From Thermoanaerobaculia bacterium (lineage in GTDB: Bacteria; Acidobacteriota; Thermoanaerobaculia; Multivoradales; UBA5704), in NCBI GenBank assembly GCA_035544875.1, contig DASZZP010000038.1:192185-256184 (forward strand): DNA of 64,000 nucleotides, written 5' to 3'. The notes below the pieces were generated by a model. The model worked only from the letters and a program-made list of their open reading frames with translations, did no database searches and was not told the origin of the DNA. The position numbers were made by a program, and so were the translations under genes. This document shows positions 7,040 to 49,042 of the stretch, piece by piece; the stretch's first letter is position 1; each line of letters starts with the position of its first letter.

Positions 7040-7044
7040 GGACC

Positions 7045-10549: not shown

Positions 10550-10551
10550 GT

Positions 10552-14776: not shown

Positions 14777-14779
14777 TTC

Positions 14780-20219: not shown

Positions 20220-20225
20220 ACCTGC

Positions 20226-29559: not shown

Positions 29560-29561
29560 GC

Positions 29562-32568: not shown

Positions 32569-32816
32569 CGGCGCTCTCCCTGCTCTCGTTCATCGCGCGC
32601 CGCCGGCAGCGCGCCCTCGCCCCAGGGTGGCCAGGCGAAAACGACCAGCAGCCCGAGCAGCGCCGAGGCCGCGACGCAGAAGCCGATGTGATAGAGCAGG
32701 CCGGCCGGCAGGCCGAGCCACAGCCGGCGGTCGTTCCACAACCAGAGATCGTTGTGCAGCAGGTAGAGCACCGCGAGCGCGCTGTAGAGCAGCGCGGCCC
32801 ATCCACGGCGTCTCAT
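32565..32816 (-). CDS. DUF3311-like small membrane protein partnered with the SSS transporter
   Basis: 83 aa, two TM helices, LYLLHNDLWLWND motif. Canonical partner gene immediately upstream of SSS permeases. Confidence 0.6.
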   Translation of the reverse strand: MRRRGWAALLYSALAVLYLLHNDLWLWNDRRLWLGLPAGLLYHIGFCVAASALLGLLVVFAWPPWGEGALPAARDEREQGERR

Positions 32817-34171: not shown

Positions 34172-34187
34172 GGCGTCGCGGTCCTCG

Positions 34188-36365: not shown

Positions 36366-36394
36366 GCCTGCCCGCGCTTGGAACCGCCGCGTTT

Positions 36395-37759
36395 TCAAGG
36401 CCGGGCCGCGGCGACGTCGTAGGCCGCCATCGCCTCGCGGTTGCGCAGGAAGAGCTTGCCGCCAGCCAGGCTCGGCCCGGTCCAGCAGCGGCCGGAGAGC
36501 GGCTGGAAGCTCCCCCGCTCGTGGTAGGCCTCCGGGGCGGCGTCGGCCAGCACCAGCTTGCCGCTCTCCGAAAGCACCAGCAGAAGGCCGTCGGCGAGGA
36601 TCACCGAGCCGTGGCCGAGCCCGCGCTCCTTCCAGCGCTCCTCCCCGTTCTGCGCCTTGATGCACTTGAAGGTGCCGTTGTCGAAGCCGTAGAGATAGTC
36701 GCCGGCGAGCACCGACGAGCTGAACTGATTCTTGAGCCCGCGGCTCTTCCACAGTGGCTCGGCAGTCATCTGGCGGGCGTCGCCGCGGATCTGGAAGAGC
36801 GCCGAGCCGGTGTCGTAGCCGGATGAGACAAAGAGTTTGTCGGGGGCCACGAAGAGCGGCGTCGCCGCGTTGACGTCGTAGCTGGTCTCCCAGGGAACCC
36901 GCCAGAGCAGACGCCCGTCCGCCACCGCGAGGCCGGAGACGTACCCGCCGGTGAAGAAGATCGCCTGGCGCACCCCGGCGGCGGTGAGAGCAATAGGGGA
37001 GGCGTAGCCCGGCCGGTCGTCGAGCGCCTTCCACACCACCCGCCCGCTGTGCTTGTCGAACGCCATCGCCGCGCGGCCGCCGCTGCCGCCGGCCGCCACC
37101 AGCAGCAGGTCGCCTTCGACCAGCGGCGAGCTGGAGCTGCCCCAGGTCGGCATCTGGGCTCCGAACTCCTGCGCCAGGTCGTGGCTCCACTCGACCTTGC
37201 CGCTCGCTGCCGCCACGGCGAGCAACTTGCCCTGGGCGCTCTGGACGTAAAGATTGCCATCGTCGAAAGTGGGCGTCGAGCGCGGGCCGTTGCCCTGATC
37301 GTTCATCAGCTCCGAGTCGGTGCGCCGCACCCATAGCTGGTGCCCGTTGGCGGCGTCGTAGGCCGCCAGGTTCTCGGCGTTGTTCGCGCCATACAGCGTG
37401 AAGATGCGCCCGCCGGCGACCGTCAGATGCGAGTAGCCCTCGCCGATCGGCACCTGCCAGAGCTGCCGCGGGCCGCCGGCCGGCCAGCTGTGCAGCAGGT
37501 GCGCCTGGGGCGCGATACCGTCGCGGTGCGGGCCGCGAAACTGCGGCCATTCGCTGCCCGCGGCAGTCGCCGCAGTCGCGGCGCTCGCGCTGCTTGCGTT
37601 GTTCGCAGCAGGGGCGGCGCCGGAGGTTGCCGCGGCGGCGAGGAGCACCGCCGCCATCGCTCCGAGCAGGACCGGAGCGGGCCGCAGCTTCCGCCGGTCG
37701 GTGAGCGCAGTGAGCAGGGTACGGCGGGGAACGGCTGCACGGTGTCTGTTGATGGTCAT
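36395..37759 (-). CDS. Secreted PQQ-like beta-propeller repeat protein 1 (BamB-like)
   Basis: Tat-like signal NRHRAAVPRRTLLTAL. Repeated ...G.lyal...tG..lW motifs (AYDAANGHQLWV, AVAAASGKVEW, AFDKHSGRVVWK, ...). Start assigned to the ATG at 37759 (RBS GGGAGG); the track start 37798 has no RBS. Confidence 0.7.
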   Translation of the reverse strand: MTINRHRAAVPRRTLLTALTDRRKLRPAPVLLGAMAAVLLAAAATSGAAPAANNASSASAATAATAAGSEWPQFRGPHRDGIAPQAHLLHSWPAGGPRQLWQVPIGEGYSHLTVAGGRIFTLYGANNAENLAAYDAANGHQLWVRRTDSELMNDQGNGPRSTPTFDDGNLYVQSAQGKLLAVAAASGKVEWSHDLAQEFGAQMPTWGSSSSPLVEGDLLLVAAGGSGGRAAMAFDKHSGRVVWKALDDRPGYASPIALTAAGVRQAIFFTGGYVSGLAVADGRLLWRVPWETSYDVNAATPLFVAPDKLFVSSGYDTGSALFQIRGDARQMTAEPLWKSRGLKNQFSSSVLAGDYLYGFDNGTFKCIKAQNGEERWKERGLGHGSVILADGLLLVLSESGKLVLADAAPEAYHERGSFQPLSGRCWTGPSLAGGKLFLRNREAMAAYDVAAARP

Positions 37760-37781
37760 GGTGGTCGGCCCTCCCTGGCGG

Positions 37782-39149
37782 TTAGGTGTAGCGCGCATTG
37801 CGGTAACGCTCGTCGTAGAGCTCGGGCAACAGCTGATCGACGCGCAGCAGCCCGGCGTGGGTGAGCTCGATGCGGTCGGCGAACGGCTGCAGCATGCCGC
37901 GCTGCCGCAGCCGCTCCCAGGCCGGCGCGAACTCGGCGCGCACGTCGACCCCGAACTTGTCCTGGAAATAGGCGCCGTCGAGCCGCCCGAGCTTGAGCTG
38001 CAACGCCGCCTCGCGGGTCAGCAGCTCGTGCGGGCTCGGCACCAGGCCACGCTCGAGCGGCAGCCGGCCGCCCTCCACCGCCCCCAGGTAGTCGCTCCAG
38101 GTGGCGGTGTTCTGGAAGTGGCAGCCGTTGACGTGCGAGAACGACGAGATGCCGGTGCCGAGCATGTCACAGCCGTGCCAGACGGCGTCGCGATAGACGA
38201 AGCGGCAGCTCTTGTCGCGGCGCACCAGGGTGTAGGCGCTCGACTGCTCGTAGCCGGCGGCGGTGAGCTGCTCGAAGGCGTATTCCTGCCAGGCGCGCCG
38301 GGTCTGCCAGCCGGCGAAGGTCATCGCCGGGGAGTCGAGCGAGCCGCCCAGCACGCTCTTCGAGAAATCCGTGTTGTAGGGCAGCTCGAGCTGATAGATG
38401 GTGACGCTGTCCGGCGCCAGGTCGAGCGTCTTCTTGACCGTCTCGCGCCACGCCGGCCACGACTCGCCGAGCATGCCGGCGATCAGGTCGATGTTGAGCT
38501 GATCGAACGCCAGCTCCTTGATCCACGGCATCACCCGGTAGATCTCCGCCGAGAGATGGGCCCGTCCGTTGGCGCTCAGGATCTCGTCGTCGAAGTTCTC
38601 GACGCCCAGCGACAGGCGGGTGACGCCGAAGGCGCGGACCGCCTCGAGCTTGGAGCGGGTCAGGGTGCCGGGCTCGCACTCGAAGGTCACTTCCTCGACG
38701 CCGTCCCACGGCATGACGCGGCGCATCCGCTCGACCAGGCCGGTCAGCTGGCGCACGCTGAGCAGCGACGGCGTGCCGCCGCCGAAATAGACGAAGCGCA
38801 GCGGGCGGCCGGCGGTCGCGGGCAGCTCGCCATAGTGCTCGATCTCCCTGCCGAGCGCCTCCAGGTAGCGGTTGATGGCTGCGCTGTCCATCTCGGTGAA
38901 GACCCGGAAATAGCAGAACTTGCAGCGCTTACGGCAGAAAGGCAGGTGCAGGTAGAGGCCGAAATCGGTGCCCGGGCGCGGCGGGGAGGCGAGCGCCGCC
39001 TCGACGCGCGGCAACTCCTCGCCGCTCCAGAACGAGAACGGCGGATAGTTGGCCACGAACAGGTTGCCCACCGGGGGCGGATCGGCCAGCAGCGAGGAGG
39101 CGAGCTCAGCGCCCTCCTGCCTCCGTGCTGGACTCGCGGGCTCGATCAT
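37782..39149 (-). CDS. HemN/HemW-like radical SAM enzyme (class C radical SAM family)
   Basis: LYLHLPFCRKRCKFCYF (CxxxCxxC) ...YFGGGTPSLL... plus the HemN C-terminal domain. ATG at 39149 overlaps the upstream stop (ATGA). Confidence 0.8.
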   Translation of the reverse strand: MIEPASPARRQEGAELASSLLADPPPVGNLFVANYPPFSFWSGEELPRVEAALASPPRPGTDFGLYLHLPFCRKRCKFCYFRVFTEMDSAAINRYLEALGREIEHYGELPATAGRPLRFVYFGGGTPSLLSVRQLTGLVERMRRVMPWDGVEEVTFECEPGTLTRSKLEAVRAFGVTRLSLGVENFDDEILSANGRAHLSAEIYRVMPWIKELAFDQLNIDLIAGMLGESWPAWRETVKKTLDLAPDSVTIYQLELPYNTDFSKSVLGGSLDSPAMTFAGWQTRRAWQEYAFEQLTAAGYEQSSAYTLVRRDKSCRFVYRDAVWHGCDMLGTGISSFSHVNGCHFQNTATWSDYLGAVEGGRLPLERGLVPSPHELLTREAALQLKLGRLDGAYFQDKFGVDVRAEFAPAWERLRQRGMLQPFADRIELTHAGLLRVDQLLPELYDERYRNARYT

Positions 39150-40378
39150 GATGCGCCGTCTCCCTTTCCCGGTCTCGCCGCAAAGCAGTAGAGCGTGCCG
39201 TCGAGCGTGCCGACCACCAGCCGGCCGCCGGCGATCGCCGGCGAGGCCTCGATCGCCGCGCCGGCGGCGAACTGCCAGACCGGCTTGCCGGTGCGGTCGT
39301 CGAGGGCGAAGATGTCGCCGCTGCGCGCCGCCGCGACCGCGAGGCCACCGACCAGCACGGGCGAGGAGTCGACCGCGGCGCGGGCGGCGAAGGTCCAGAG
39401 CTCCTCGCCGGTGCGCGGCGACAGCGCGTGCACCAGCTTATCGCGGCCGCCCACCACCAGCAGGTCGTCGCGCACCGCCGCTGAGGAGTAGTACGGAAAC
39501 TTGAGCCGCGAGTTCTCGTAGCGCCACGCCACCCTGCCGGAACGCAGGTCGACCGCCACCAGCTGGTTCTCGAAAGTGCCGACGAACGCCCGCCCCAGGG
39601 CGACCGCCGGGCTGGCGCCGAGATAGCCGCCGAGGGCGACCTTCCAGACCTCGGCGCCGTTGCGCGCCCGCAGCCGCCGCAGGTTGCCGTCGCAGCCGGC
39701 GATCAGCACCGCGTCGCCTGAGACCGCGGGCGTGGCATTGACGTAGCCCCCGGTCTCCCGGCTCCAGCGCCGCGCGCCGTCGGCCGCGGACAGGCAGTAG
39801 ACGCTGCGGTCGTAGGAGCCGAAGAGCACGCAGCCGGCGGCAAAATTGGCCGCCGAGACGATCTCGGCGCCGGTGCGGAAGCTCCAGCGGCGCCGCCCGG
39901 TGGCGGCGTCGATGGCGTGGAAGACTCCATGCCCGTCGCCGAAGTAGACGACGCCGTCGCGCACCGCCGGCGAGGAGCGAATAGGACCCTCGGCGCGATA
40001 CTTGAAACGCAGCGCGCCGCTGTCCAGGCTGAGGGCGTATAGATTGCCGTCGAGCGAACCGACGTAGGCGCTGCCGTGCCAGATCGCCGCCGTCGAGGCG
40101 ATGCCGGCGCCCGCCTTGAACGTCCACACGGGGGCGAGCTCCCGGCCGAGAGCGCCAGCGGCGCGCCCGGTGAGCTCGGGATCGCCGCGGAACAGGGCCC
40201 AGGCGGCGCCGGCCGCCTCGCCCGCTGCTTTGCCTGCCGCTGTGCAAGCCGCCTTGCCTGCCGTTTTGGAAGACGCTTTGCCTCCAACACCCGCCGCGGC
40301 ATCGACCCCTGTCGCCGCCAGCCGCAGGCAGGCCAGCGCGAGCAGCGCGGCGGTTGCGGGACGTGGGCGAGGTCGCAT
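39146..40378 (-). CDS. Secreted PQQ-like beta-propeller repeat protein 2
   Basis: Signal peptide MRPRPRPATAALLALACLRLAATG. Repeats ...GNLYALSLDSGALRFKY, VFHAIDAATGRRRWSF, VYCLSAADGARRWS, LVAVDLRSGRVAWRY, IFALDDRTGKPVWQF. Confidence 0.75.
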   Translation of the reverse strand: MRPRPRPATAALLALACLRLAATGVDAAAGVGGKASSKTAGKAACTAAGKAAGEAAGAAWALFRGDPELTGRAAGALGRELAPVWTFKAGAGIASTAAIWHGSAYVGSLDGNLYALSLDSGALRFKYRAEGPIRSSPAVRDGVVYFGDGHGVFHAIDAATGRRRWSFRTGAEIVSAANFAAGCVLFGSYDRSVYCLSAADGARRWSRETGGYVNATPAVSGDAVLIAGCDGNLRRLRARNGAEVWKVALGGYLGASPAVALGRAFVGTFENQLVAVDLRSGRVAWRYENSRLKFPYYSSAAVRDDLLVVGGRDKLVHALSPRTGEELWTFAARAAVDSSPVLVGGLAVAAARSGDIFALDDRTGKPVWQFAAGAAIEASPAIAGGRLVVGTLDGTLYCFAARPGKGDGAS

Positions 40379-40422
40379 GGCGCAATGGGTCTGGCGTGCG
40401 GGTCTTGCCGTCGTCACGGGAT

Positions 40423-41727
40423 TCAGTAGGCCTGCTGGTAGAGCCACAGCAAATCGGCTTCGCCGACCAGCCGCGGGTTGAAGCGGGCGGTCCACTGCCG
40501 CGCCGCCTCGCACGCCAGCTCCTCCAGGGCCGCCGCCTCGACGCCGACCTCGCGCAGGCGCGCCGGTAGACCGGCGGCGGCGCGCAGCGCCTCGATCCTC
40601 GCCGCCAGCTCCTCTCCCCCGGCGTATGGGCCGAGCCCGGGGTAGCCGCCGGTGTCTAGAGTCGGCGGAGTCGGCGGAGTCGGGGGAGTCGGCGGTGTCA
40701 GAGTCGTGGCCGGCGGCCGGGCGCTGTTGAAGCGCACCACGTGCGGCAGCAGCAGGGCGACCGCGGCGCCGTGCACGATGCCGTAGCGGGCGGTGAGCGG
40801 GTTGGCGCAGGCGTGCGCCGCCCCCAGCATCGAGACCTCGATTGCCGCGCCGGCGAGATGGGCGCCGAGCAGCATGGCGCCGCTGGCGCCGGCATCCTCC
40901 GGCGCCGCGAACGCGCGCTCGAGGCTCGGCTCGAGCAGCCGCCAGGCCTCGCGCGACAGCATCCGCGACACCGGGTTGGCGCGCCGGCATACCAGACTCT
41001 CGACGGCATGCGAGAGGGCGTCGAGCCCGGCTGCCGCCGCCACCCGGCGCGGTGCGCTCCCGACCAAGGCCGGATCCAGGACCACGATGCGGAAACGCGC
41101 CTTGCGGTCGCCGCAGGCCATCTTCTGGTGGCTCTCCTCCTGCGAGATCAGGGCGTAGGACTGCGCCTCGCTGCCGGTGCCGGCAGTGGTGGGAACGCCG
41201 ATCGCCGGCAGCATCGGCCGCCGGGCGCGGCCAAAGCCCTGGTAGTCCTCCATGCGGCCGCCGTTGGTGAGCAGGAAGTTGATCCCCTTGGCGCAGTCCA
41301 TGGCGCTGCCGCCGCCGAGGCCCACCAGCAGGTCGGCGCCCCACTCTGCTGCGGCGTCGCGGCCGGCCTCCACCTGCCGCGTCGTGGGGTTCTCGCCCAC
41401 CCCGTCGAAGACCCGCGCCGCCACCTCCGCCGCGCCCAGGACGACCGCGGCGCGCTCGACGTGGCCCGCGGCGCGCACCCCGGGGTCGCTGACCAGCAGC
41501 GCACGGCGGCCGCCGAGCTCGCGCGCCAGCTCGCCCAGGGCCGCCACCGCGCCGTGGCCGAAGAGCACGTCGATGCCGCCCACCTCGGCCCGCCACTCGG
41601 CTGCCCGCCACTCCGCCGCCGCGGGCGGCGTCCGGGAGCCGGGATCGGTGCTGGGTTCGCTGGCTGCGCCGGCGTCGCTGGCGCCGCCGGCTCCACTGGC
41701 TACGCTGCCTCTGAACACCGCGCTCAT
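40423..41727 (-). CDS. Iron-containing (group III) alcohol dehydrogenase
   Basis: ...LVGLGGGSAMDCAKGINFLL...GVPTTAGTGSE...LDALSHAVES... Contains an inserted PPTPPTPPTPPT stretch from a 9-nt tandem DNA repeat. ATG at 41727 overlaps the LuxC-like stop (ATGA). Confidence 0.8.
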   Translation of the reverse strand: MSAVFRGSVASGAGGASDAGAASEPSTDPGSRTPPAAAEWRAAEWRAEVGGIDVLFGHGAVAALGELARELGGRRALLVSDPGVRAAGHVERAAVVLGAAEVAARVFDGVGENPTTRQVEAGRDAAAEWGADLLVGLGGGSAMDCAKGINFLLTNGGRMEDYQGFGRARRPMLPAIGVPTTAGTGSEAQSYALISQEESHQKMACGDRKARFRIVVLDPALVGSAPRRVAAAAGLDALSHAVESLVCRRANPVSRMLSREAWRLLEPSLERAFAAPEDAGASGAMLLGAHLAGAAIEVSMLGAAHACANPLTARYGIVHGAAVALLLPHVVRFNSARPPATTLTPPTPPTPPTPPTLDTGGYPGLGPYAGGEELAARIEALRAAAGLPARLREVGVEAAALEELACEAARQWTARFNPRLVGEADLLWLYQQAY

Positions 41728-43361
41728 CGGCCCTCGCCCTCCGGCGCCGACACGAGCGCCGGCGGCTGAGGCAGCGGCGCCGGGGGCGCCGCCAGGCCGG
41801 GGCCCAGGCCGGCCACGCGCAGCGCGCGGCGGCGGTAGAGCAGGTCGAAGAGGTTGCCTTCGTGCGGCTGGGCAAAGGAGACCTGCCAGGTCGGCACGGC
41901 GCCCAGGTGCAGGTGATCGACGTCGCGGCAGGCGAGCAGCTCGCCGCGCAGCTCCTCGTCCGCGGTCAGGACGGTCGCCACTAGCGTCGGACCGAGGCGC
42001 GCCGGCAGCTCGGCGCGCGGTACTTCGACCACCGCGCCGAACGGGAAGAGCAGCTCGGCGCGGGCCAGCGGGTGGTCGGCATCGCGCACCCAGATCAGGG
42101 TCGGCAGCAAGAAGGTGCAGCCGTCGACCTCAACCACGCGCCCGCCACTCCGATCGCCGCGCGCCGCGGCGGTCAGGTCTTCGGCCTCCCCCGGGGCCAG
42201 CCGGCGATCGATCCACTCCGAGATGCGGCGCGCCGCCGCGGGGTCGGGCCACGCCGCCAGCTCTGCGCGCGGGTCGTCGAGCGGACGCGCCTCGACCGCG
42301 GCCAGGCGCCGCGCCAGCGCCTCGGCGAATTCGCGCGCCGGCGTGGAGCGGCCACCGCGCGCCGGGCCGGCGCCGCTGGCGGCCTGGGCGCCGTCAACGG
42401 CTTCCAGCCAGACCCCCGAGGCGTTGATGCACGAGCGGCCGCCATTGGCGAGCAGCGAGCTCGCCACCAGCTCGAGGTGGGAAGGCCACTCGGCGAGCTG
42501 GTCGGCACCCATGATCACCTTGCTGAAACCCGGCCCATGGACCTCGATCCGCCGGTCGCCGCGCCACGGGCTGACCGTCGCCGCGTCGCCAAATAGCAGC
42601 GAGCGGCCGCAGCGCAGCAGGATCTCGGCGGCGCCGGCGTGGTCGGTGGGATAGAACGAGAGCGCCGCCGGCGGGCAGCCCGCCGCCGCCAGGGCGCGCA
42701 GCAGGCGCAGTGGGGTCCAGGGCTCGTCGCGCCCCGGCTTGAGCGCCAACCCGACACCCAGCGCCGGCGCGGCCAGCCACAGCCCATGCACCCCCGGCGA
42801 GTTGCTCGGCAGCACGGCGCCCAGGGTGTCGGCGAGGCGCTGGAAGTGCGCGCCGCCGGCGTCGCGCTCCGGAGCCGAGGAATCGAGGGCGGCGGCCGGC
42901 AGGCCGCGCGTCAGCCCGGCAACCACCTCTTCCATCCCGGCGAGCGTGGCGCGCAGCTTCTCGAGGTTGGCGCGCGCCAGGGTCAGCGGCAGGCCGGTGG
43001 TGGCCGAGACGTCGCGCAGGTAGTCGGCGGGCGCCTGCGTCTCGCCGTCAAAGCCGACCGCCAGCTCGCCTTCGGCGAACAGCGCCGCCGCCCGGCGGCA
43101 GATCGCCAGCCGCTCGCCGAGCGGCAGCGCACCCAGGGGCGCCGCCAGCCGGCTCTCGCGGCTCTCGGGTACGCGCGCCGCCGCGGCGGCCGGAGCAAGG
43201 CTCGCGCCCAGATCGCGGGCGATCAGGGCGGCATTGGCCTGGCTCACCTCGGCCACCAGCTCGCCGCTGCGCAGATCGCGCAGCCGCGCCACCTCGGCGC
43301 TGCGATAGGCGGCGCCGCCGCGCAGCACCGGCAGGTGCAAGGCCACCGGCCGCCGCGCCAT
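41724..43361 (-). CDS. LuxC-like acyl-CoA reductase / aldehyde-dehydrogenase-superfamily protein
   Basis: ...LPSNSPGVHGLWLAAPALGVGLALKPGRDEP... and the catalytic region ...LANGGRSCINASGVW (conserved Cys). 545 aa. ATG at 43361 overlaps the stop of the adenylating-enzyme gene (ATGA). Confidence 0.55.
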   Translation of the reverse strand: MARRPVALHLPVLRGGAAYRSAEVARLRDLRSGELVAEVSQANAALIARDLGASLAPAAAAARVPESRESRLAAPLGALPLGERLAICRRAAALFAEGELAVGFDGETQAPADYLRDVSATTGLPLTLARANLEKLRATLAGMEEVVAGLTRGLPAAALDSSAPERDAGGAHFQRLADTLGAVLPSNSPGVHGLWLAAPALGVGLALKPGRDEPWTPLRLLRALAAAGCPPAALSFYPTDHAGAAEILLRCGRSLLFGDAATVSPWRGDRRIEVHGPGFSKVIMGADQLAEWPSHLELVASSLLANGGRSCINASGVWLEAVDGAQAASGAGPARGGRSTPAREFAEALARRLAAVEARPLDDPRAELAAWPDPAAARRISEWIDRRLAPGEAEDLTAAARGDRSGGRVVEVDGCTFLLPTLIWVRDADHPLARAELLFPFGAVVEVPRAELPARLGPTLVATVLTADEELRGELLACRDVDHLHLGAVPTWQVSFAQPHEGNLFDLLYRRRALRVAGLGPGLAAPPAPLPQPPALVSAPEGEGR

Positions 43362-44502
43362 CAGTACACCCCGACCACCACCGAGCTGGCGAGCGCCTCG
43401 AGCAGGCGCACGTTGCGCACCCCGTCCCACGGGAACCCGGCGACCGGGGCGGCGCGCTCGGCCTGGTCGCGCTCGAGGAAGCGCGGCATGAAAAACTCGC
43501 GCGTCAGGGTGGTGAGCATCACCTGTCCGGTTTCGCCGTACTCCACCCGCCGCTCGGGATCGTCGGGATCCACCAGCTCGAGCACGGCGCGCGGTTGCGG
43601 CGCGTAGTAGGTGATGGCCCAGCGCGACTCGGGCGGCTCGGGCGACTCGGAGACGCCGCCGCCGGCGCCGTCCGCCGCGCCCGCCCCCCCGGGGGCGGGA
43701 CAGGCGAGCCCCATCAACGTGTTGCCGTAGACCGGGTAGAAGACGACGCCCGGGATCAGCTCCTCGCGCGCGAAGCGGTGGAACTGCGGGCTCATCTCGG
43801 TGCCGCCGCAGAAGACGCCGCGGATGCCCAGCCGCGGCAGCGCGACCCGCTCGGCAAGCGCGGCGAGCAGCTTCGGCGTGGTGAACAGGCAGCGGATGCT
43901 CTCGTGCGCCCGCAGCAGCTTGAGCCCCTGCTCGACGACGTGGCGCTTGTAGGCCTCGAGCTCCCGCGGCCGGCCGTCCCTGATCAGCTCGTTGACCCAG
44001 CGCGGATCGAGGTCGACCAGGAAGCAGATGCCGCCGCGGTGCTGGGCCAGGTGCTCGATCGCCAGGCGCAAGCGGCGCGGCCCGGTCGGCCCCAGCATCA
44101 GCCAGTCGGCGCCGCGCGGGAAGCCGTCCTCCGGGAGGCGCTCGCTCAGCTGCTCGTAGTCGATGCGGAAGTCCTCGATGTTGATGCGCGACTTCGGCAG
44201 GCCGGTCGAGCCGCCGGTCTCGAACACCGCGATCGGGCGGTCGGCCAGGGCGCGCGGCACCCAGCGCCGGATCGGACCGCCGCGCAGCCACTCGTCCTCG
44301 AAGTGGCCCAGCCGCCGCAGGTCGTCGTAGCCGCCGATCTCGCGCCGCGGATCGAAGTCGAGGCGTCGGGCGTAGTCGAGCCAGAACGGCGAGCCGGTCG
44401 CGGGGTCGAAGTGCCAGCGCACGACCTCGCGCACGTGCTCGTCGAGCCGCTCGCGGGCAGCCCTCACCGCCGCGGCCAACGAGCTCTCGAGGATGGCGGT
44501 CA
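43361..44502 (-). CDS. LuxE/PaaK-like adenylate-forming enzyme (acyl-protein synthetase / phenylacetate-CoA-ligase fold)
   Basis: AMP-binding P-loop FETGGSTGLPKSR, ...VFCGGTEMSP..., about 380 aa. No in-frame ATG is available, so a TTG start at 44502 (RBS GGAGAG) is proposed. Start is uncertain. Confidence 0.5.
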
Positions 44503-44577
44503 AGATCTTCTCTCCGGCGTCGTAGCCCGCTCGTCCTGCCCGCTCGTCCTGCCCGGTCGTCCTGCCAAGAGCCTCCG

Positions 44578-46233
44578 CTACCGCGGAGGCCTGACGGGAG
44601 CGGCTGATGCCGGGTCCGCTGAGGCCGCCGCCTTGTGCTCCGGAATGCCTTCGGCGATCGCGAACAGCTTCGAGCGGGAGGTGACGTAGAGCACGCCGTC
44701 GCGCGCCACCGGGGTGCTGAACACGGCGCTCCCCAGATTGATCTTGCTCAGCACTTCGAGCTGGCGGGCCGCCCGCAGCACCGCGACGTCGCCGTCCTCG
44801 TTGCCGATATAGACCTTGCCGTCGGCGAGGAGCGGCGAGCCCCAGATCGCGCCGTAGGAGTTGTAGACCCAGTACGGCTTGCCGGTCTGGGCGTCGAGGC
44901 AGTAGACGTAGCCCGAGAAATCGGCCGTGAACAGCAGTCCGTCGCGCACCGCAACCGTCGACAGGCTGCGATGGAAGTCCTCGCCGCCGCGTTGCCAGAC
45001 CACCGCCTTGCCGGTCAGGTCGCCCTCGCCGCGCGGCCGCAGCGCCCACAGGTGGCCGATGCCTTCGCCGTGTTCGGGGTCCTCGCCGACCGCGACGTAG
45101 ACCATGTCGCCGGCGATCACCGGCATCGCTAGGATGCCGTTGCGCGTCGAGCCGGGACCGATGGTGTAGACCGAGTCCTTGGGGTTGCAGTCGAAGCGCC
45201 AGATGACCTTGCCGGTCTTCGGCTCGAGGGCGTAGAGCCAGCCGTCGCCGCCGGCGAAGAGCACCTGCGGCTTGCCGTCGAGGACGCCATAGGAGGGGCT
45301 CGACCACTGCCCGTGCAGGATCTTCTCGCCCGGCAGCGAGCTCTGCCAGACGACCTTGCCGGTGTGCTTGTCGACGGCGAGGAAGCTGGGCGCCCGCGGC
45401 GCCGGGATGTTGATATGCCCTTCGTCGACGCCGTTGCCGGTGACCACGTAGACCAGGTCGTCGATGACCAGCGGGCTGCTCGCCGCTTGGTTGTGCGGGT
45501 AGACGCCGAGCTCGCCGATCATGTCGAGCTTCCAGACGAAATCGGCGTCGATCTCGCTGGTCTCGGTCTCGGCGGTGAAGGGGCCGTCGTTCTTGCCGTC
45601 GCGGAACCCCTCGGTGTCGGCGCACACCAGCTCGGCGCGGTTCGAGACGTAATAGAGCCGGTTGCCCTCGACCGCCGGCGTCGAGCAGATGCCTTGCAGC
45701 GGCCAGTCGTTGACCTTGCCCTGGCTCAGCTTGTCGTGTGCGGCCTGCCAGAGGAACTGGCCGTCGGCGGCGCGGAAAGCCATGATCACACCGCGGTCGC
45801 CGGTGATCTTCGGATTGCGCTTGCCCTGGTTGTTGGTGCCGACGAAGACCTTGCCGCCGGCCACCAGCGGCCCGCCATAGCTCTGCGACCCCAGGTCGGC
45901 GGCCCACTTGACATTGAGGCCGGTCGCGGGGTCCCAGCGGCTGGGCAGGTGGGTCGCGTCCGAGACCATGTTGCGCGCCGGAGTGCCGCCGTACATCGCC
46001 CGGTCGGCCGCGCCGCCCGGCGCCGATGCCGCCGGCAGTGCCTGCGCCGCCGCGGTTGCCGGCGCCGGCCGGGCCGCCGATCCGCCAGGCGGTGCCGGAG
46101 AAGCTGGCGCCGCTGCCGGCGCGGACGGCGCGGTCGGCGCTGTCGGAGACATGGGCGCCGGCTCGAGGCGGCCGGCGGCGAACAGCGCCGCGAGCGCCAG
46201 CAGCTGACCTTTACCGATCATCCTTGCCATCAC
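44578..46233 (-). CDS. Secreted PQQ-like beta-propeller repeat protein 3 (551 aa)
   Basis: Signal peptide MMARMIGKGQLLALAALFAAG, Pro/Ala-rich linker, then 8 propeller-blade repeats (...GQFLWQ, ...GKVVWQS, ...GKVIWRF, ...GKPYWVY). Confidence 0.75.
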   Translation of the reverse strand: MMARMIGKGQLLALAALFAAGRLEPAPMSPTAPTAPSAPAAAPASPAPPGGSAARPAPATAAAQALPAASAPGGAADRAMYGGTPARNMVSDATHLPSRWDPATGLNVKWAADLGSQSYGGPLVAGGKVFVGTNNQGKRNPKITGDRGVIMAFRAADGQFLWQAAHDKLSQGKVNDWPLQGICSTPAVEGNRLYYVSNRAELVCADTEGFRDGKNDGPFTAETETSEIDADFVWKLDMIGELGVYPHNQAASSPLVIDDLVYVVTGNGVDEGHINIPAPRAPSFLAVDKHTGKVVWQSSLPGEKILHGQWSSPSYGVLDGKPQVLFAGGDGWLYALEPKTGKVIWRFDCNPKDSVYTIGPGSTRNGILAMPVIAGDMVYVAVGEDPEHGEGIGHLWALRPRGEGDLTGKAVVWQRGGEDFHRSLSTVAVRDGLLFTADFSGYVYCLDAQTGKPYWVYNSYGAIWGSPLLADGKVYIGNEDGDVAVLRAARQLEVLSKINLGSAVFSTPVARDGVLYVTSRSKLFAIAEGIPEHKAAASADPASAAPVRPPR

Positions 46234-46237
46234 CGCG

Positions 46238-48484
46238 TCACCGGTTCCTTGTCACGCTCAGGTTGGTGAACAGGATCTCCGCCGGCGAGTAGCCGTAGAG
46301 TCCCGGGCTGCCGTTGCGCACCGGGCGCGGGTCGCGCGCGGTGACCGTCCAGCCGGCGGGCTCCGGCTCGCCGCGCGGCCACACCTTGCCGCGGATCAGC
46401 CCCTGGTCGCCTTGCACTTCGGCCCGCAGCTTCATCGTGTACCAGACGTCCGGCGTCCACTTGAAATCGACCTGCTCCATCAGCCGCAGCTCGGTGTCCC
46501 AGGCGCGCAGCTGCAGGCGCTGGCTCGCCCCCATCAGGTCGAGGACGTAGCCGCTGGCGATCAGCCCCATGTCCGGCAGCACCTGGCCGGCCTGGGTGCC
46601 GAGCAGGTCGGCCTGCACCGTGTAGTCGCGCAGCGTCGGCGGGCCGATATAGGTGTTCGCGCGGTGGAGGCCGCGCGGCGCCGGGGGCTTGGCCAGGACC
46701 CTGCCGTAACGGGTCTCCTTGACCACGAACTTGCCGGGAGCGCCCACCCAGCCGGGCGGCGAGCTGGGCGCCAGCGCCGCGAAGTCCTCTTTCCAGGGGA
46801 GATCGGGCACCACGCGCACCCGCGCCTTGGCGGCGAGCTCGCCCCAGCGTGCGTTGATCTCTCCGGTCTGGAATCCGCGGCCGGGGTCGGCGACAAACGT
46901 GCCGTCCGCGTCGAGGCGGCCGGCCAGCCCCGCCAGCGACCAGCTCACTGCTGAGGACGCTCCGGGCGGCGGCGCCACCGCCAGGCCCTGCTCGTCGAAG
47001 GCCACGCCGCGGAAGCGCGCCGGCTCGCCCGGCCGGATCAGCACCTCGGCAGGCACCACCTGCAGCAGGCGCGCGCCCCCGGCGGCCGGCGTGCCCGCCC
47101 CGGCCGCCCTGCCTGCCGGCTCGGCCGCGCTCTCGGCCCGCAGCGGCTGCGACTTTTCGCCCAGGCAGTAGAGCCCGCTCTCGGCGGCGAAGTAGATCCG
47201 CCCGTAGGCCACCGCCGGCGAGCCGTAGATCTCGGCGAAGCGGCTGCCGTCGGCGGTGCGCAGGCGCTGCTCGTCGAGCACCTCCACGCTGCCGCGGCTG
47301 GGCTTCAGGATGTCGAACCGGCCGTTGACCTCGGCGACGTAGAGCTTGCCGTCGGCCCACACCGGCGACGCCTTGCCGATGGTGCCGAGCTTGTGCCTCC
47401 AGAGGATCTTGCCGGTCGTTGCGTCGAGGGCGGCGAGGGCGGCCGCGTTGTCCACGACGTAGAGCAGCCCGTCGTGGTAGAGCGGCGACGGGAAGCCCGA
47501 CACCACCTCGTCATTGCGCCAGAGCTCGTGCGTGCGCGTCACGTCGCCGGTGCCGGTGGCGTCGATCGCTACCACCCTGCCCTGCAGCCCGGTGTCGAGG
47601 TTCTCCTCGCCGTGGGCGGCGAAGACCACCTTGTCGTGCACGACCACCGTGTTGTTGAACGCGCCCTTGCTCAGGTGAAAGCTCCAGACCTTCTCGCCGG
47701 TGCGCGCCTTGAGCGCGTAGATCCAGCCGTCGCCCTGACCTTCGATGAGCAGCCGCTGGCCGCCGATCTCGGCCACCACCGGCGTCGTCTGGATGTTGAA
47801 ATCCTGCGGCAGCTCGCCGGGGGTCGACACCCAGCGCAGCTCGCCGGTGCGCTTGTCAAAGGCGAAGACGCGGTGGCGGGGGGGACCCTGGTCGCCCCAG
47901 CCGGCGTTGACGAAGCTGACGATCAGCCGGTCCTCGTCCACCAGCGGCGAGTGCGTGCGGCCGCCGACCCCGGAGATGAGTCCGAACTCCTCGGTCAGCG
48001 ACCGCCACCACGCGATCTTGCCGTCGCGGTCGAAGCAATACAGCAGCCCGCCGACGCCGAGCGCGTAGACGTTGCCGGTCTCGCGGTCGGCAGCCAGGCT
48101 GCCCCAGCCGACGCGGCTGAACGGCACCGCCGTGAGATAAACGTCGAGAAAACGCTCCCAGAGCTTGCGGCCGCTGGCCGCGTCGAAGCAGGCCACGCTC
48201 TCCTGGCGAGTTGGACCGTTGCCGACGCGGCCGTTGGCACAGACCCGGCCGCCGACCACCACCGGCGTCGAGCGGCCGCTCAGATCGGCCCGCCAGACCA
48301 GGTTCTCGCCCGCGGGGCTCCACTTCGAGATCAGCTGGACGTCGCTCGCGACGCCGTTCTGCTGCGGCCCGCGCCAGGAAGGCCAGTCAGCCCGGACGCG
48401 CCGTGCCCCGAGCCCGCCCGCCAGCAGGATGCATCCCAACCCGATCAGCAAGCGCCGCCACGGCATCGCTCTCGCTCCATTCAT
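46238..48484 (-). CDS. Secreted PQQ-like beta-propeller repeat protein 4 with an extra ~300-aa C-terminal domain
   Basis: Signal peptide MNGARAMPWRRLLIGLGCILLAGG, propeller repeats (...GRKLWER, ...GELRWVS, ...GEKVWSF, ...GKILWRH), then a non-propeller domain of unknown family. Start assigned to the ATG at 48484 (RBS GGTGAGGA). Confidence 0.7.
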   Translation of the reverse strand: MNGARAMPWRRLLIGLGCILLAGGLGARRVRADWPSWRGPQQNGVASDVQLISKWSPAGENLVWRADLSGRSTPVVVGGRVCANGRVGNGPTRQESVACFDAASGRKLWERFLDVYLTAVPFSRVGWGSLAADRETGNVYALGVGGLLYCFDRDGKIAWWRSLTEEFGLISGVGGRTHSPLVDEDRLIVSFVNAGWGDQGPPRHRVFAFDKRTGELRWVSTPGELPQDFNIQTTPVVAEIGGQRLLIEGQGDGWIYALKARTGEKVWSFHLSKGAFNNTVVVHDKVVFAAHGEENLDTGLQGRVVAIDATGTGDVTRTHELWRNDEVVSGFPSPLYHDGLLYVVDNAAALAALDATTGKILWRHKLGTIGKASPVWADGKLYVAEVNGRFDILKPSRGSVEVLDEQRLRTADGSRFAEIYGSPAVAYGRIYFAAESGLYCLGEKSQPLRAESAAEPAGRAAGAGTPAAGGARLLQVVPAEVLIRPGEPARFRGVAFDEQGLAVAPPPGASSAVSWSLAGLAGRLDADGTFVADPGRGFQTGEINARWGELAAKARVRVVPDLPWKEDFAALAPSSPPGWVGAPGKFVVKETRYGRVLAKPPAPRGLHRANTYIGPPTLRDYTVQADLLGTQAGQVLPDMGLIASGYVLDLMGASQRLQLRAWDTELRLMEQVDFKWTPDVWYTMKLRAEVQGDQGLIRGKVWPRGEPEPAGWTVTARDPRPVRNGSPGLYGYSPAEILFTNLSVTRNR

Positions 48485-48513
48485 CGTTCGAGTCCTCACC
48501 GCCAGTGCTGATC

Positions 48514-48778
48514 CCGAGGGATGAACGGCACTGCGATGCGGCAGTGGAGGCCTACTCGAAGCATCCATCGGATCGCCACCCGCATCCCCCGCGAGTCCCC
48601 TTCCCGGTTGTCGGAAGCCGCCGGGTCCCGACCTCCGGGAAGTGCCGCACGTCCATCACCGGACGTGCGGCCGACTTCCGAGGAGTGCCGCCCGGCCATA
48701 GCCGGACGGGCGGCCTGCCCGGGGGCGCCGGGGGGGAAGGGGACGCCCCCTCCCCCTCACAGCGGGGAGTTTCGTCTT
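48514..48778. repeat. Copy A of a ~150-nt repeated intergenic element carrying a nested REP pair
   Basis: Shares the ccgagggatgaaNggcNctgcgatNNggcNgtggaggcctactcgaagcatcNatcgg...ccccttccc core, a G-rich palindrome (gggggaaggggacgccccctcccc) and a tcgtctt tail with 63045..63192. A REP pair (48630..48715) is inserted between the core and the palindrome. Confidence 0.65.
48630..48715. repeat. Tandem pair of 43-nt REP-like palindromic elements (second locus, nested inside the larger repeat)
   Basis: gacctccgggaagtgccgcacgtccatcaccggacgtgcggcc followed by a diverged unit whose changes largely preserve the stem, though the right arm has one mismatch (ggacgggcggc where ggccgggcggc is needed). Confidence 0.7.
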
Positions 48779-49042
48779 ACCGCACGCCGCGCCATCCTGC
48801 CTCCCCCGGCGCACGCCAGCCTGCGGCTGAGCATACATCGACCTGCCGGAATCGGCTATCACCCTCCCCCTTCAGCAATGGTGTTGAAGGAAGCGCTGCC
48901 AAGAATGTCCTCCCCTGGCACTGGGTCATTCTAAAGTGACCCCGTACCCCTCCCCCTGCAGCGCGACCACGAGCGCGTAGACTGCTGGTTTCGGACTCAC
49001 CGGCGATTCAGCCGGCCGGAAGCTGGGTGAGGAGGATTCCCG

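What the first reader, a model, noticed from the sequence alone, without database searches (positions are those of the whole stretch)
41724..44502. Adjacent, overlapping LuxE/PaaK-like adenylating enzyme and LuxC-like reductase followed by an Fe-alcohol dehydrogenase
Seen in sequence:
- The adenylating enzyme carries the P-loop FETGGSTGLPKSR.
- The stop of its ORF overlaps the ATG of a 545-aa ALDH-superfamily protein with a ...GGRSCINASG... active-site Cys.
- That gene's stop in turn overlaps the Fe-ADH start.

Established knowledge: the LuxE+LuxC arrangement is the fatty-acid reductase module of lux operons and also occurs in non-luminous bacteria.

Inference: a fatty acid to aldehyde to alcohol route. 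The adenylating enzyme lacks an obvious in-frame ATG (a TTG start is proposed). It also lacks the C-terminal acylation Cys of canonical LuxE, so it may be a distinct subfamily.
Basis: partly seen in the sequence, partly recalled or inferred. Interest (0 to 1): 0.65.

Follow-up and report, generated by a model that had tools for sequence, protein, structure and literature searches.

The report
Split carboxylate reductase plus alcohol dehydrogenase
Three tightly packed genes in an uncultured Acidobacterium most likely turn a carboxylic acid into an aldehyde and then an alcohol; the first two enzymes are relatives of a pair from phenazine antibiotic pathways, not of the lux enzymes, and they sit in a large, widely conserved operon whose product is unknown.

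Summary
The sequence features are real, and all lie on the minus strand:
- a 380-aa truncated adenylating enzyme (43361-44503, TTG start);
- a 545-aa ALDH-superfamily protein (41724-43361);
- an Fe-alcohol dehydrogenase (40423-41727).

Their stop and start codons overlap as TGATG and ATGA.

The LuxE/LuxC label does not hold at family level. Neither protein matches the LuxE or LuxC Pfam models. The adenylating enzyme is a full-length homologue of EhpF (PDB 3L2K, E 1e-42). Its partner is a homologue of EhpG (E 4e-35).

The ALDH-like protein keeps the catalytic Cys, the oxyanion Asn and the cofactor-binding Glu. It lacks the deacylating Glu, which fits a reductase.

The best reading is ATP-dependent carboxylate activation, NAD(P)H reduction to the aldehyde, then Fe-ADH reduction to the alcohol. 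Fusion proteins found elsewhere support this reading. The substrate is unknown; relatives in interpretable gene contexts sit beside pathways that make aromatic acids, not fatty acids.

This clade is 61-88% identical across Acidobacteriota, Poribacteria, Latescibacterota and Gemmatimonadota. Here it lies in a roughly 15-gene operon with four exported PQQ-like propellers, a HemN-like radical SAM enzyme, a flavin halogenase, a TonB receptor, a symporter, a glycosyltransferase and an ABC/FtsX exporter.

Verdict: a new variant of a known kind, of moderate interest.

The parts
43361..44503 (-). EhpF-type truncated ANL adenylating enzyme, 380 aa, TTG start. It has no ANL C-terminal domain.
   Evidence: phmmer against PDB: EhpF 3L2K/3HGU, E 1e-42, residues 12-380 against 11-366 of 366. 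34% identity to a plasmid-borne EhpF, E 9e-58. Only a sub-threshold Pfam AMP-binding hit and no LuxE hit.
44510..44515 (-). Shine-Dalgarno-like GGAGAG, six bases upstream of the TTG start
   Evidence: Read directly from the sequence.
44186..44224 (-). P-loop (ANL motif A3), FETGGSTGLPKSR
   Evidence: Six-frame motif search. E95, G97, G98, T100, G101 and P103 are invariant across the clade, EhpF, and the haloarchaeal and Streptomyces homologues.
41724..43361 (-). EhpG-type ALDH-superfamily protein, 545 aa, the proposed acyl-adenylate reductase. Its ATG shares one base with the upstream TGA.
   Evidence: 28% identity to EhpG, E 4e-35. A family profile against PDB hits ALDHs at 5e-19. The AF2 model (pLDDT 81, pTM 0.82) has an ALDH fold, TM 0.6-0.7.
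42429..42431 (-). Codon of Cys311, equivalent to the ALDH catalytic Cys302
   Evidence: Invariant in 23 of 23 family members, including EhpG and the archaeal homologue. It aligns to the catalytic Cys of ALDH structures.
40423..41727 (-). Iron-containing (group III) alcohol dehydrogenase, 434 aa from ATG 41727, or about 386 aa from GTG 41583
   Evidence: Pfam Fe-ADH 3e-44 and ADH_Fe_C 3e-32. PDB methanol, propanediol and lactaldehyde reductases score 1e-47 to 2e-55, and AdhE ADH domains also match. The Asp/His/His/His metal ligands and the GGGS motif are aligned.
44578..48568 (-). Two exported PQQ-like (BamB-like) beta-propeller proteins, 776 and 551 aa, the first genes of the operon
   Evidence: Pfam PQQ_2. 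N-terminal hydrophobic signal-like segments. Conserved directly upstream of the ANL gene in 24 of 62 loci.
36395..40378 (-). Propeller (410 aa), HemN-like radical SAM enzyme (455 aa), propeller (454 aa)
   Evidence: Pfam and NCBIfam. PDB HemN 7e-35 and NocN 7e-28. Conserved order in type A loci.
30991..36398 (-). TonB-dependent receptor, flavin-dependent halogenase homologue, DUF3311 small protein and sodium:solute symporter
24911..30983 (-). GT4 glycosyltransferase, LolD/MacB-like ABC ATPase and a 1275-aa duplicated FtsX permease
   Evidence: They follow ANL-ALDH directly in the 'type B' loci: GT4 in 33, ABC in 29 and FtsX in 25 of 49 loci.

Best explanation
The three genes encode a split, carrier-protein-independent carboxylic acid reductase followed by an alcohol dehydrogenase.

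Proposed steps, all inferred:
1. The 380-aa EhpF-type enzyme is an ANL adenylating enzyme without the C-terminal domain that normally handles CoA or phosphopantetheine. It uses ATP to form an acyl-adenylate from a free carboxylate.
2. Cys311 of the EhpG-type ALDH-like partner attacks the acyl-adenylate. This forms a thioacyl-enzyme, which NAD(P)H reduces to the aldehyde.
3. The Fe-ADH reduces the aldehyde to the primary alcohol. This resembles a split AdhE fed by acyl-AMP instead of acyl-CoA.

Shown here:
- homology of both proteins to EhpF and EhpG;
- absence of the ANL C-terminal domain;
- conservation of the ALDH nucleophile, oxyanion and cofactor residues, and loss of the deacylating Glu;
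- translational coupling;
- strongly conserved ANL-ALDH adjacency.

The direction of the reaction is also inferred, from those features. The substrate is unknown. A small aromatic or heteroaromatic acid is the best guess from relatives and from the neighbouring halogenase and class-C-like radical SAM enzyme.

The trio is the cytoplasmic core of a roughly 24-kb, 15-gene operon (24911-48568, minus strand). That operon looks like a biosynthesis, export and uptake system for an unknown small molecule.
For: Family assignment:
- ANL: full-length homologue of EhpF; 34% identity to a plasmid EhpF.
- ALDH-like: 28% identity, E 4e-35, to the EhpG encoded directly after that ehpF. ehpF and ehpG are adjacent in phenazine clusters (PMC11278526).

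Literature on related pairs:
- The lomofungin cluster has ADH / EsmB1 (annotated 'phenazine antibiotic biosynthesis protein', the name an EhpF homologue carries) / ALDH genes, and its product carries a 6-formyl group (PMC4549113).
- Griseoluteic acid carries a 6-hydroxymethyl group and derives from phenazine-1,6-dicarboxylate through EhpF-O (PMC3175449).
- GriC (AMP-binding) and GriD reduce 3,4-AHBA to the aldehyde through an acyl-AMP (Suzuki 2007, as cited in PMC10179220).

Active site of the ALDH-like protein:
- Asn187 (=Asn169), Cys311 (=Cys302) and Glu436 (=Glu399) are invariant; Lys208 (=Lys192) is present here and is Lys or Arg in the family.
- The general base Glu268 aligns to His275 (Gln in EhpG, Tyr in the archaeal homologue), as expected for a non-hydrolysing enzyme.

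Coupling and synteny:
- TGATG and ATGA overlaps.
- The ALDH gene lies downstream on the same strand in 53 of 58 loci, median gap 67 nt.

Fusion proteins point to an aldehyde product that is processed further:
- ALDH-like + Fe-ADH (P0094, 58% identity);
- Zn-ADH + EhpF-like (P0359);
- class III aminotransferase + EhpF-like (P0331).

Fe-ADH: metal ligands intact; it matches AdhE ADH domains.

Context of relatives points to aromatic acids: phenazine genes; PhzD/PhzE-like genes; DAHP synthase and PabB; MqnD/E/C. NCBI names these relatives 'arylcarboxylate reductase'.
Against: - No biochemical assay exists for this clade, and none can be run here.
- EhpF-type enzymes lack the C-terminal-domain Lys that canonical ANL enzymes use in adenylation, so even ATP-dependent adenylation is an inference.
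- Identity to EhpF/EhpG is only 28-35%. This clade is a separate, much more conserved branch, so its substrate and even its acceptor could differ.
- The Fe-ADH accompanies the pair in only 11 of 49 loci. The alcohol step is therefore not a universal part of the module.
- Uptake genes (TonB receptor, symporter) in the operon would also fit a salvage or catabolic role.
- Homology of GriC/GriD to these proteins was recalled from memory, not tested here.
Confidence: 0.65

Rival explanations
1. A LuxE/LuxC-type fatty acid reductase. A fatty acid is activated, reduced to a fatty aldehyde and then to a fatty alcohol, perhaps for a glycolipid that the GT4 builds and the ABC/FtsX system exports.
For: - The architecture parallels LuxE/LuxC: an ANL enzyme of about 370 aa plus an ALDH-superfamily Cys reductase of about 480 aa.
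- 2 of 23 ALDH-like members, and EhpG itself, give weak LuxC hits (3.8e-4; 9.9e-5).
- GT4 and a LolD/DevA-like ABC exporter directly follow ANL-ALDH in most loci.
Against: - No LuxE or LuxC Pfam hit for the window proteins, even at E<=10; 0 of 16 ANL members hit LuxE.
- No C-terminal acyl-Cys.
- No LuxD-like, luciferase or fatty-acid genes were found among the window ORFs scanned.
- All relatives with interpretable context act next to aromatic-acid pathways.
Confidence: 0.12
2. The ANL enzyme is an amide- or thioester-forming ligase of a small halogenated peptide-like natural product. This is the 'Halo_AMP' idea. The ALDH-like and Fe-ADH proteins would be ordinary oxidative tailoring enzymes.
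For: A 2026 preprint describes orphan clusters in sponge Acidobacteriota, Latescibacterota and Poribacteria. They combine a halogenase, an AMP-binding enzyme, PQQ-like domains, rSAM, TonB, GT and ABC genes, and the authors propose adenylation for amide bond formation. A halogenase homologue is present in this operon.
Against: - The enzyme lacks the ANL C-terminal domain.
- The ALDH-like gene is its most constant neighbour, 53 of 58 loci, and is often translationally coupled. The halogenase was seen within 10 kb downstream in only 3 of 49 loci, though these flanks end where it would lie.
- The ALDH-like protein lacks the deacylating Glu.
- No carrier protein, condensation, ATP-grasp or amine-supplying gene turned up in the Pfam scans of the operon genes.
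Confidence: 0.1
3. Catabolic or salvage direction. An imported alcohol or aldehyde is oxidised by the Fe-ADH and the ALDH-like protein, and the resulting acid is activated by the ANL enzyme.
For: - A TonB-dependent receptor and a DUF3311/SSF symporter lie in the same operon.
- A symporter-ANL-ALDH trio recurs on a Halalkalicoccus plasmid. Its symporter is 29% identical to the one here, E 5e-46.
- Most ALDHs are oxidative.
Against: - The general base Glu268 is missing, so the thioacyl-enzyme could not be hydrolysed efficiently.
- An ANL enzyme without a C-terminal domain has no evident acceptor for the activated acid.
- Characterised relatives run in the reductive direction.
- Halogenase, GT and exporter genes point to biosynthesis.
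Confidence: 0.08

Closest known systems
EhpF/EhpG of the D-alanylgriseoluteic acid (phenazine) pathway, Pantoea agglomerans. EsmB1/Lomo15 and Lomo16 in Streptomyces appear, by their annotations, to be related.
   Same: - A truncated ANL enzyme of about 355-380 aa without the C-terminal domain, full-length alignable (E 1e-42).
- It is directly followed by an ALDH-family protein with the same Cys motif (E 4e-35).
- An alcohol dehydrogenase lies nearby in the lomofungin cluster. The products carry a formyl or hydroxymethyl group where a carboxylate was.
   Different: - Only 28-35% identity.
- No phenazine genes here.
- This clade is far more conserved (61-88% identity across phyla).
- It sits with exported propellers, a TonB receptor, rSAM, a halogenase, GT4 and an ABC/FtsX exporter.
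- EhpG has Gln where this clade has His at the position of the ALDH general base.
GriC/GriD carboxylic acid reductase of grixazone biosynthesis, Streptomyces griseus
   Same: An AMP-binding protein makes an acyl-AMP from an aromatic acid (3,4-AHBA), and a second protein reduces it to the aldehyde (PMC10179220 citing Suzuki 2007). This is the same two-protein, carrier-free logic.
   Different: Sequence relationship to the window proteins was not tested here; the GriC/GriD sequences are not in the accessible collections. NCBI's name 'arylcarboxylate reductase' for actinomycete EhpF-like proteins is only an indirect link.
LuxE/LuxC fatty acid reductase of lux operons
   Same: It works in a similar way. 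A small ANL-type synthetase activates an acid with ATP, and an ALDH-superfamily enzyme with a catalytic Cys reduces the acyl group with NADPH to an aldehyde.
   Different: - No match to the LuxE or LuxC models.
- No C-terminal acyl-Cys relay on the synthetase.
- No LuxD.
- Relatives are linked to aromatic acids, not to fatty acids.
AdhE (bifunctional acetaldehyde-CoA/alcohol dehydrogenase)
   Same: A non-hydrolysing ALDH domain followed by an Fe-ADH domain carries out acyl to aldehyde to alcohol. The Fe-ADH here matches AdhE ADH domains, and a fused ALDH-like + Fe-ADH relative exists (P0094).
   Different: The acyl donor would be an acyl-adenylate from a dedicated ANL enzyme, not acyl-CoA. In this window the ALDH and ADH are separate proteins.
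Type I carboxylic acid reductases (Nocardia CAR, Lys2-like A-T-R enzymes)
   Same: The net reaction is the same: acid + ATP + NADPH gives an aldehyde.
   Different: CARs are single polypeptides of about 1,200 aa with a phosphopantetheine carrier and an SDR-type reductase domain. Here there is no carrier, and the reductase has an ALDH fold.
'Halo_AMP' orphan gene clusters of sponge symbionts (Loureiro et al., bioRxiv 2026)
   Same: The same phyla and the same unusual mix of genes: halogenase, AMP-binding enzyme, PQQ-like domains, rSAM, TonB transporter, GT and ABC.
   Different: The preprint does not mention the ALDH or ADH partners, or EhpF, and it proposes amide formation. Identity of its clusters with this operon could not be checked, because the figures and sequences are not held.

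Membership tests
LuxE acyl-protein synthetase (PF04443) | Match to the LuxE family model | tested here: not met
   No PF04443 hit at E<=10 for the window protein. 0 of 16 members of the family alignment hit it at E<=1.
LuxE acyl-protein synthetase (PF04443) | Acylatable Cys near the C-terminus, which relays the acyl group to LuxC | tested here: not met
   The protein ends ...LEALASSVVVGVY. There is no Cys in the last 140 residues. The C-terminal GVY is conserved in the family.
LuxE/LuxC system | Lux operon context (LuxD acyltransferase, LuxAB luciferase) | tested here: not met
   Pfam and NCBIfam scans of the candidate ORFs submitted from the window (about 45) found none.
LuxC acyl-CoA reductase (PF05893) | Match to the LuxC family model | tested here: not met
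   No hit for the window protein at E<=10. 2 of 23 family members hit weakly (best 3.8e-4), against 23 of 23 for Aldedh.
PaaK phenylacetate-CoA ligase | Full-length similarity, including the C-terminal domain | tested here: not met
   PDB PaaK 4R1L matches only residues 307-346, E 1.7. No NCBIfam PaaK hit. The protein ends where the N-terminal domain ends.
EhpF-type truncated ANL enzymes ('arylcarboxylate reductase' in NCBI naming) | End-to-end homology to EhpF, with no ANL C-terminal domain | tested here: met
   Residues 12-380 of 380 align to 11-366 of 366, E 1e-42. The P-loop, YGxT, GExG and ERD motifs are invariant.
EhpF-type truncated ANL enzymes ('arylcarboxylate reductase' in NCBI naming) | An adjacent EhpG-type ALDH-like partner gene | tested here: met
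   One-base overlap in the window. Homology to EhpG, E 4e-35. Adjacent in 53 of 58 related loci and in the E. coli, Burkholderia, Streptomyces and Halalkalicoccus plasmid loci.
EhpF-type truncated ANL enzymes ('arylcarboxylate reductase' in NCBI naming) | ATP-dependent reduction of an aromatic carboxylate to the aldehyde | not testable with these tools
   This needs an enzyme assay or genetics. The only support is literature on EhpF/G and GriC/D.
ALDH superfamily | Catalytic Cys302, oxyanion Asn169, Lys192 and Glu399 equivalents, and the ALDH fold | tested here: met
   C311, N187 and E436 are invariant in the family; K208 is present in the window protein (Lys or Arg in the family). The AF2 model against PDB ALDHs gives TM 0.6-0.7, probability 1.00.
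ALDH superfamily, hydrolysing (acid-forming) class | General base Glu268 for deacylation | tested here: not met
   The position aligns to His275 (His in the clade, Gln in EhpG, Tyr in the archaeal homologue).
Iron-containing (group III) alcohol dehydrogenases | Family models above threshold, the Asp/His/His/His metal site and the GGGS nucleotide motif | tested here: met
   PF00465 scores 150.8 bits against a cutoff of 31.3; PF25137 scores 112.3 against 27. The ligands align in GLDALSH, HACA and VHG; GGGSAMD is present.

The most novel reading that the evidence does not exclude
The whole 15-gene operon (24911-48568) would make, export and take back an as yet unknown small molecule. It is conserved in at least several hundred species of Acidobacteriota, Poribacteria, Latescibacterota and Gemmatimonadota.

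The product would be a halogenated and/or C-methylated aromatic alcohol or aldehyde, possibly glycosylated. It would act in the periplasm together with the four exported PQQ-like propeller proteins, for example as a cofactor, metallophore or signal. The split carboxylate reductase would be the one invariant biosynthetic step.
Probability: 0.25. Interest if true: 0.75.

Novelty: new variant of a known kind. Interest (0 to 1): 0.5.

Why it matters
Carrier-free, two-protein carboxylic acid reductases are known only from a few actinomycete and enterobacterial antibiotic pathways. They have hardly been studied biochemically.

This work shows a distinct branch of that enzyme pair that is unusually well conserved, at 61-88% identity across at least four phyla. 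That degree of conservation points to one shared, selectively important substrate.

It also gives a concrete, testable chemical role to the 'AMP-binding' gene of orphan halogenase/PQQ-like clusters recently reported in sponge symbionts: reduction, not amide formation.

If the substrate were found, it would open a route to the product of a common operon in major uncultured soil and sponge lineages. It would also add a compact ATP/NAD(P)H acid-to-aldehyde module to the biocatalysis toolbox.

Tried and rejected
- LuxE/LuxC membership: rejected, because the Pfam models do not match.
- PaaK or CoA-ligase catabolism: rejected, with only a local E 1.7 match and no C-terminal domain.
- Curated family names: NCBIfam gives none for either protein. 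The 'arylcarboxylate reductase' name is not backed by any HMM in the library.
- Link to GriC by name: a homologue search with a Streptomyces 'arylcarboxylate reductase' returned no GriC label, so that link stays untested.
- Literature: the EhpF structure paper (PMC2879354) is not held. Searches for two-component CARs and for EsmB1/GriC co-mentions found nothing usable.
- Phytanate alpha-oxidation idea: PhyH and a TPP enzyme sit next to the ANL gene in Poribacteria. Dropped, because these genes are lineage-specific insertions absent from the window and from most loci.
- Heme or tetrapyrrole degradation idea (ChuW-like rSAM plus TonB receptor): not supported. The rSAM enzyme is equally close to HemN and to the class C methyltransferase NocN.
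- True PQQ dehydrogenases: the propellers match only single repeats of the PQQ-dehydrogenase model and look BamB-like.
- Other scans: no Rfam families in the window and no promoter-like or convincing terminator sites in 40000-49200, which spans the first genes of the operon. The single ARAGORN tRNA lies inside a coding sequence.

Full report

The window is about 72% G+C. The genes of the finding are on the minus strand.
- A six-frame motif search places FETGGSTGLPKSR at 44224-44186(-) and GGRSCINASG at 42443-42414(-).
- Codon-position G+C defines three consecutive genes, with third-position GC of 0.89-0.96:
  - the adenylating enzyme, 43361-44503;
  - the ALDH-like protein, 41724-43361 (545 aa);
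  - the Fe-ADH, 40423-41727.
- The junctions read tacTGATGgcg, a one-base overlap at 43361, and ccgATGAgcg, a four-base overlap at 41727-41724.
- The adenylating ORF has no in-frame ATG before codon 136. The TTG at 44503 is preceded by GGAGAG at a six-base spacing. The nearest in-frame start upstream would overlap the preceding gene by about 470 nt.
- The public annotation of the identical protein uses the same start (P0121), and homologues align from it.
- The Fe-ADH start is less certain. The 48 codons after ATG 41727 are low-complexity with a weak coding signal, and GTG 41583 would give a length typical of homologues.

The window comes from a Thermoanaerobaculia (Acidobacteriota) metagenome-assembled genome. 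The evidence is 100% identity of both proteins to database entries P0001 and P0121 from that MAG.

**2. What are the two enzymes?**

*Family models*
- Neither protein matches the LuxE (PF04443) or LuxC (PF05893) models, even at E<=10. There are only weak AMP-binding (6.5e-6, below threshold) and Aldedh (2.8e-6) hits.
- NCBIfam has no family for either protein.

*The adenylating enzyme*
- Against solved structures it aligns end to end with EhpF (3L2K/3HGU), E 1e-42, residues 12-380 against 11-366 of 366.
- EhpF is the ANL enzyme of the D-alanylgriseoluteic acid phenazine pathway. It lacks the C-terminal domain. That point comes from the title of Bera et al. 2010, cited in PMC3175449; the details are from my memory, because the paper is not held.

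*The ALDH-like partner*
- An E. coli plasmid carries an ehp-like phenazine cluster. Its ehpF homologue is 34% identical to the window protein (E 9e-58). The gene directly after it is annotated as an ALDH family protein (EhpG). It is 28% identical to the window's ALDH-like protein over residues 110-517 (E 4e-35), including the G-G-x-x-C-x-x-A-S motif.
- ehpF and ehpG are also listed as neighbours in a Proteus cluster (PMC11278526).

*Scans of family alignments*
- All 23 ALDH-like members hit Aldedh; 2 of 23 weakly hit LuxC.
- All 16 ANL members hit AMP-binding; none hits LuxE.

**3. Active-site reading of the ALDH-like protein**

A profile of 23 family members finds ALDH structures at E down to 5e-19.
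- Asn187 corresponds to ALDH Asn169.
- Lys208 corresponds to Lys192.
- Cys311 corresponds to the nucleophile Cys302.
- Glu436 and Phe439 correspond to Glu399 and Phe401.
- Asn187, Cys311, Glu436 and Phe439 are invariant across the clade, EhpG and a haloarchaeal homologue; the Lys208 position is Lys or Arg.
- The deacylation base Glu268 aligns instead to His275 (Gln in EhpG, Tyr in the archaeal protein).

By established ALDH enzymology, enzymes that do not hydrolyse the thioacyl intermediate lack this Glu. Examples are the CoA-acylating and reductive ALDHs.

An AlphaFold2 model (pLDDT 81, pTM 0.82) has a complete ALDH fold. It has no close solved relative: TM 0.6-0.7 at 15-19% identity.

**4. 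The Fe-ADH**

- It passes both Pfam Fe-ADH models.
- It matches methanol, propanediol and lactaldehyde reductases, and the ADH domains of AdhE.
- It keeps the Asp/His/His/His metal site and the GGGS motif.

**5. Evidence for the acid-to-aldehyde-to-alcohol route**

*Literature on relatives*
- Phenazine-1,6-dicarboxylate is converted by EhpF-O to griseoluteic acid, which bears a 6-hydroxymethyl group (PMC3175449).
- The lomofungin cluster has adjacent ADH, EsmB1 and ALDH genes. EsmB1 is listed there as a 'phenazine antibiotic biosynthesis protein', the annotation an EhpF homologue carries on the E. coli plasmid. The metabolites carry a 6-formyl group (PMC4549113).
- GriC and GriD reduce 3,4-AHBA through an acyl-AMP to the aldehyde (PMC10179220 citing Suzuki 2007).

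*Fusion proteins found here*
- The ALDH-like protein fused to an Fe-ADH (P0094, 904 aa, 58% identical to the window protein).
- An EhpF-like domain fused to a Zn-ADH (P0359).
- An EhpF-like domain fused to a class III aminotransferase (P0331).

The two EhpF-like fusions attach an enzyme that consumes aldehydes to the activating enzyme; the first joins the two reductive steps in one polypeptide.

*Synteny*
- Among 80 loci from a one-genome-per-species collection, the ALDH-like gene follows the ANL gene on the same strand in 53 of 58 loci with enough flank. The median gap is 67 nt.

The mechanism itself (adenylate, thioacyl-Cys311, hydride transfer) is inferred, not shown.

**6. Substrate**

The substrate is unknown. 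Relatives at 33-39% identity sit next to genes that make aromatic acids:
- phenazine genes;
- PhzD/PhzE-like genes in Burkholderia;
- DAHP synthase plus PabB in Streptomyces goshikiensis;
- MqnD/MqnE/MqnC (1,4-dihydroxy-6-naphthoate) in S. angustmyceticus;
- a type I PKS.

NCBI names many of them 'arylcarboxylate reductase'. Nothing points to fatty acids.

On a Halalkalicoccus plasmid the pair follows a sodium:solute symporter. That symporter is 29% identical to the one in this operon (E 5e-46). This hints that the acid may be imported.

**7. Context**

The trio lies in a tightly packed minus-strand operon, with gaps of 74 nt or less and many 4-nt overlaps. It starts at 48568, with divergent genes upstream. 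No promoter-like or convincing terminator sites were found in the stretch scanned, 40000-49200.

Gene order:
1. propeller (776 aa);
2. propeller (551 aa);
3. ANL;
4. ALDH-like;
5. Fe-ADH;
6. propeller (410 aa);
7. HemN-like radical SAM enzyme;
8. propeller (454 aa);
9. TonB-dependent siderophore-type receptor;
10. FAD enzyme;
11. DUF3311 protein;
12. sodium:solute symporter;
13. GT4 glycosyltransferase;
14. LolD/MacB-like ABC ATPase;
15. 1275-aa duplicated FtsX permease.

Further points:
- All four propellers have signal-like N-termini. The enzymes do not.
- The FAD enzyme is a flavin-dependent halogenase homologue: halogenase 8zop 5e-64, PltA 5e-59, Bmp2-type 1e-55, with the GGGPAG, FKIGES and WFWYIP motifs.
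- The radical SAM enzyme matches HemN and the class C methyltransferase NocN.

**8. Distribution**

The lineages are Thermoanaerobaculia, Pyrinomonadaceae, Blastocatellia, Bryobacteraceae, Vicinamibacteria, Chloracidobacterium, strain Mor1, Poribacteria, Latescibacterota and Gemmatimonadota.
- At 50% clustering, the whole EhpF-like family has only about 250 clusters at E<=1e-30.

Two architectures recur:
- Type A is the full set seen here. Fe-ADH, the 410-aa propeller and the rSAM gene are present in 11 of 49 loci.
- Type B is reduced to ANL, ALDH-like, GT4, ABC, FtsX and sometimes a propeller. GT4 is present in 33 of 49 loci.

The ANL-ALDH pair is therefore the constant core, and the Fe-ADH is a lineage-specific addition.

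A 2026 preprint reports orphan 'Halo_AMP' clusters in sponge Acidobacteriota, Latescibacterota and Poribacteria. These combine a halogenase, an AMP-binding enzyme, frequent PQQ-like domains, rSAM, TonB, GT and ABC genes. The authors propose amide formation, and they do not mention the ALDH or ADH partners.

**9. Verdict**

The chemistry, and a LuxCE-like way of working, are plausible. LuxE/LuxC membership and a fatty-acid substrate are not supported.
- The pair belongs to the EhpF/EhpG kind of carrier-free carboxylate reductases.
- It is a new, unusually conserved variant in an uncharacterised envelope-associated operon.
- Confidence is about 0.95 for the family assignment, about 0.65 for the acid-to-aldehyde-to-alcohol function, and about 0.5 for an aromatic substrate.

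Noticed in passing
window 32813-34153 (-): A flavin-dependent halogenase homologue (PltA/Bmp2/CndH type) with GGGPAG, the FKIGES lysine and the WFWYIP signature. No carrier protein turned up in the Pfam scans of the operon genes, although most of the closest solved relatives act on carrier-bound pyrroles or phenols.
   Followed up: partly
window 36395-37759, 39146-40378, 44578-46233, 46238-48568 (-): Four paralogous BamB-like/PQQ-like beta-propeller proteins with signal-like N-termini are interleaved with cytoplasmic enzymes in one operon. They match only single repeats of the true PQQ-dehydrogenase model. Their role is unknown.
   Followed up: partly
window 37782-39149 (-): A HemN-like radical SAM enzyme that is below the threshold of every NCBIfam equivalog (ChuW/HutW, STM4012, HemN). 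It also matches the class C methyltransferase NocN. It is translationally coupled to the preceding propeller gene.
   Followed up: partly
window 24911-30983 (-): GT4 glycosyltransferase, LolD/MacB-like ABC ATPase and a 1275-aa duplicated FtsX permease. In most Pyrinomonadaceae, Bryobacteraceae and Blastocatellia loci these directly follow ANL-ALDH, with no Fe-ADH, rSAM or halogenase ('type B').
   Followed up: partly
L001 and L086 (metagenome contigs, taxonomy not given), around 2600-17900: These versions insert PhyH, a TPP-dependent enzyme, an APH-family kinase and a creatininase-family amidase between the ANL and Fe-ADH genes. An AAA_15/DUF4276 gene pair, plus a transposase in L086, sits between the two upstream propeller genes.
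   Followed up: no
L032, L053, L064: Some Blastocatellia-type loci carry two ANL paralogues (about 64% and 56% identical to the window protein) flanking the GT4 gene. Where the flank reaches (L032, L064), the second is followed by a more divergent ALDH-like gene (38-39%).
   Followed up: no
L005 (Halalkalicoccus jeotgali plasmid 2), 6505-10563: A haloarchaeal plasmid carries a sodium:solute symporter, an EhpF-like gene and an ALDH-like gene in a row. The pair therefore crosses the bacteria/archaea boundary and recurs next to the same transporter family.
   Followed up: partly
window 37041-37131 (-): ARAGORN calls a 91-nt tRNA-Thr(GGT) inside the coding sequence of the 454-aa propeller gene. 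No Rfam tRNA hit supports it, so it is probably a false positive.
   Followed up: partly
window 20000-24300 and 10000-12000: Stretches of lower G+C (0.62-0.66, against about 0.72). The ORFs at 20750-24148 and at 24275-24850 have no Pfam match. The content of this region, just downstream of the operon, is unexplained.
   Followed up: no
window 7901-19790 (-): A second MacB-type permease (882 aa, with a MacB periplasmic core domain) lies next to a PadR regulator. There is also an exopolysaccharide-like gene set: a GT2/pyruvyl-transferase fusion, a DegT aminotransferase and a GT4.
   Followed up: no
window 41724-41816 and 41584-41727 (-): The ALDH-like protein has a Pro/Ala-rich C-terminal tail of about 30 aa, and the Fe-ADH has a possible low-complexity N-terminal extension of 48 aa. 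Most homologues lack both. It is unclear whether these are real linkers or a start-codon artefact.
   Followed up: partly
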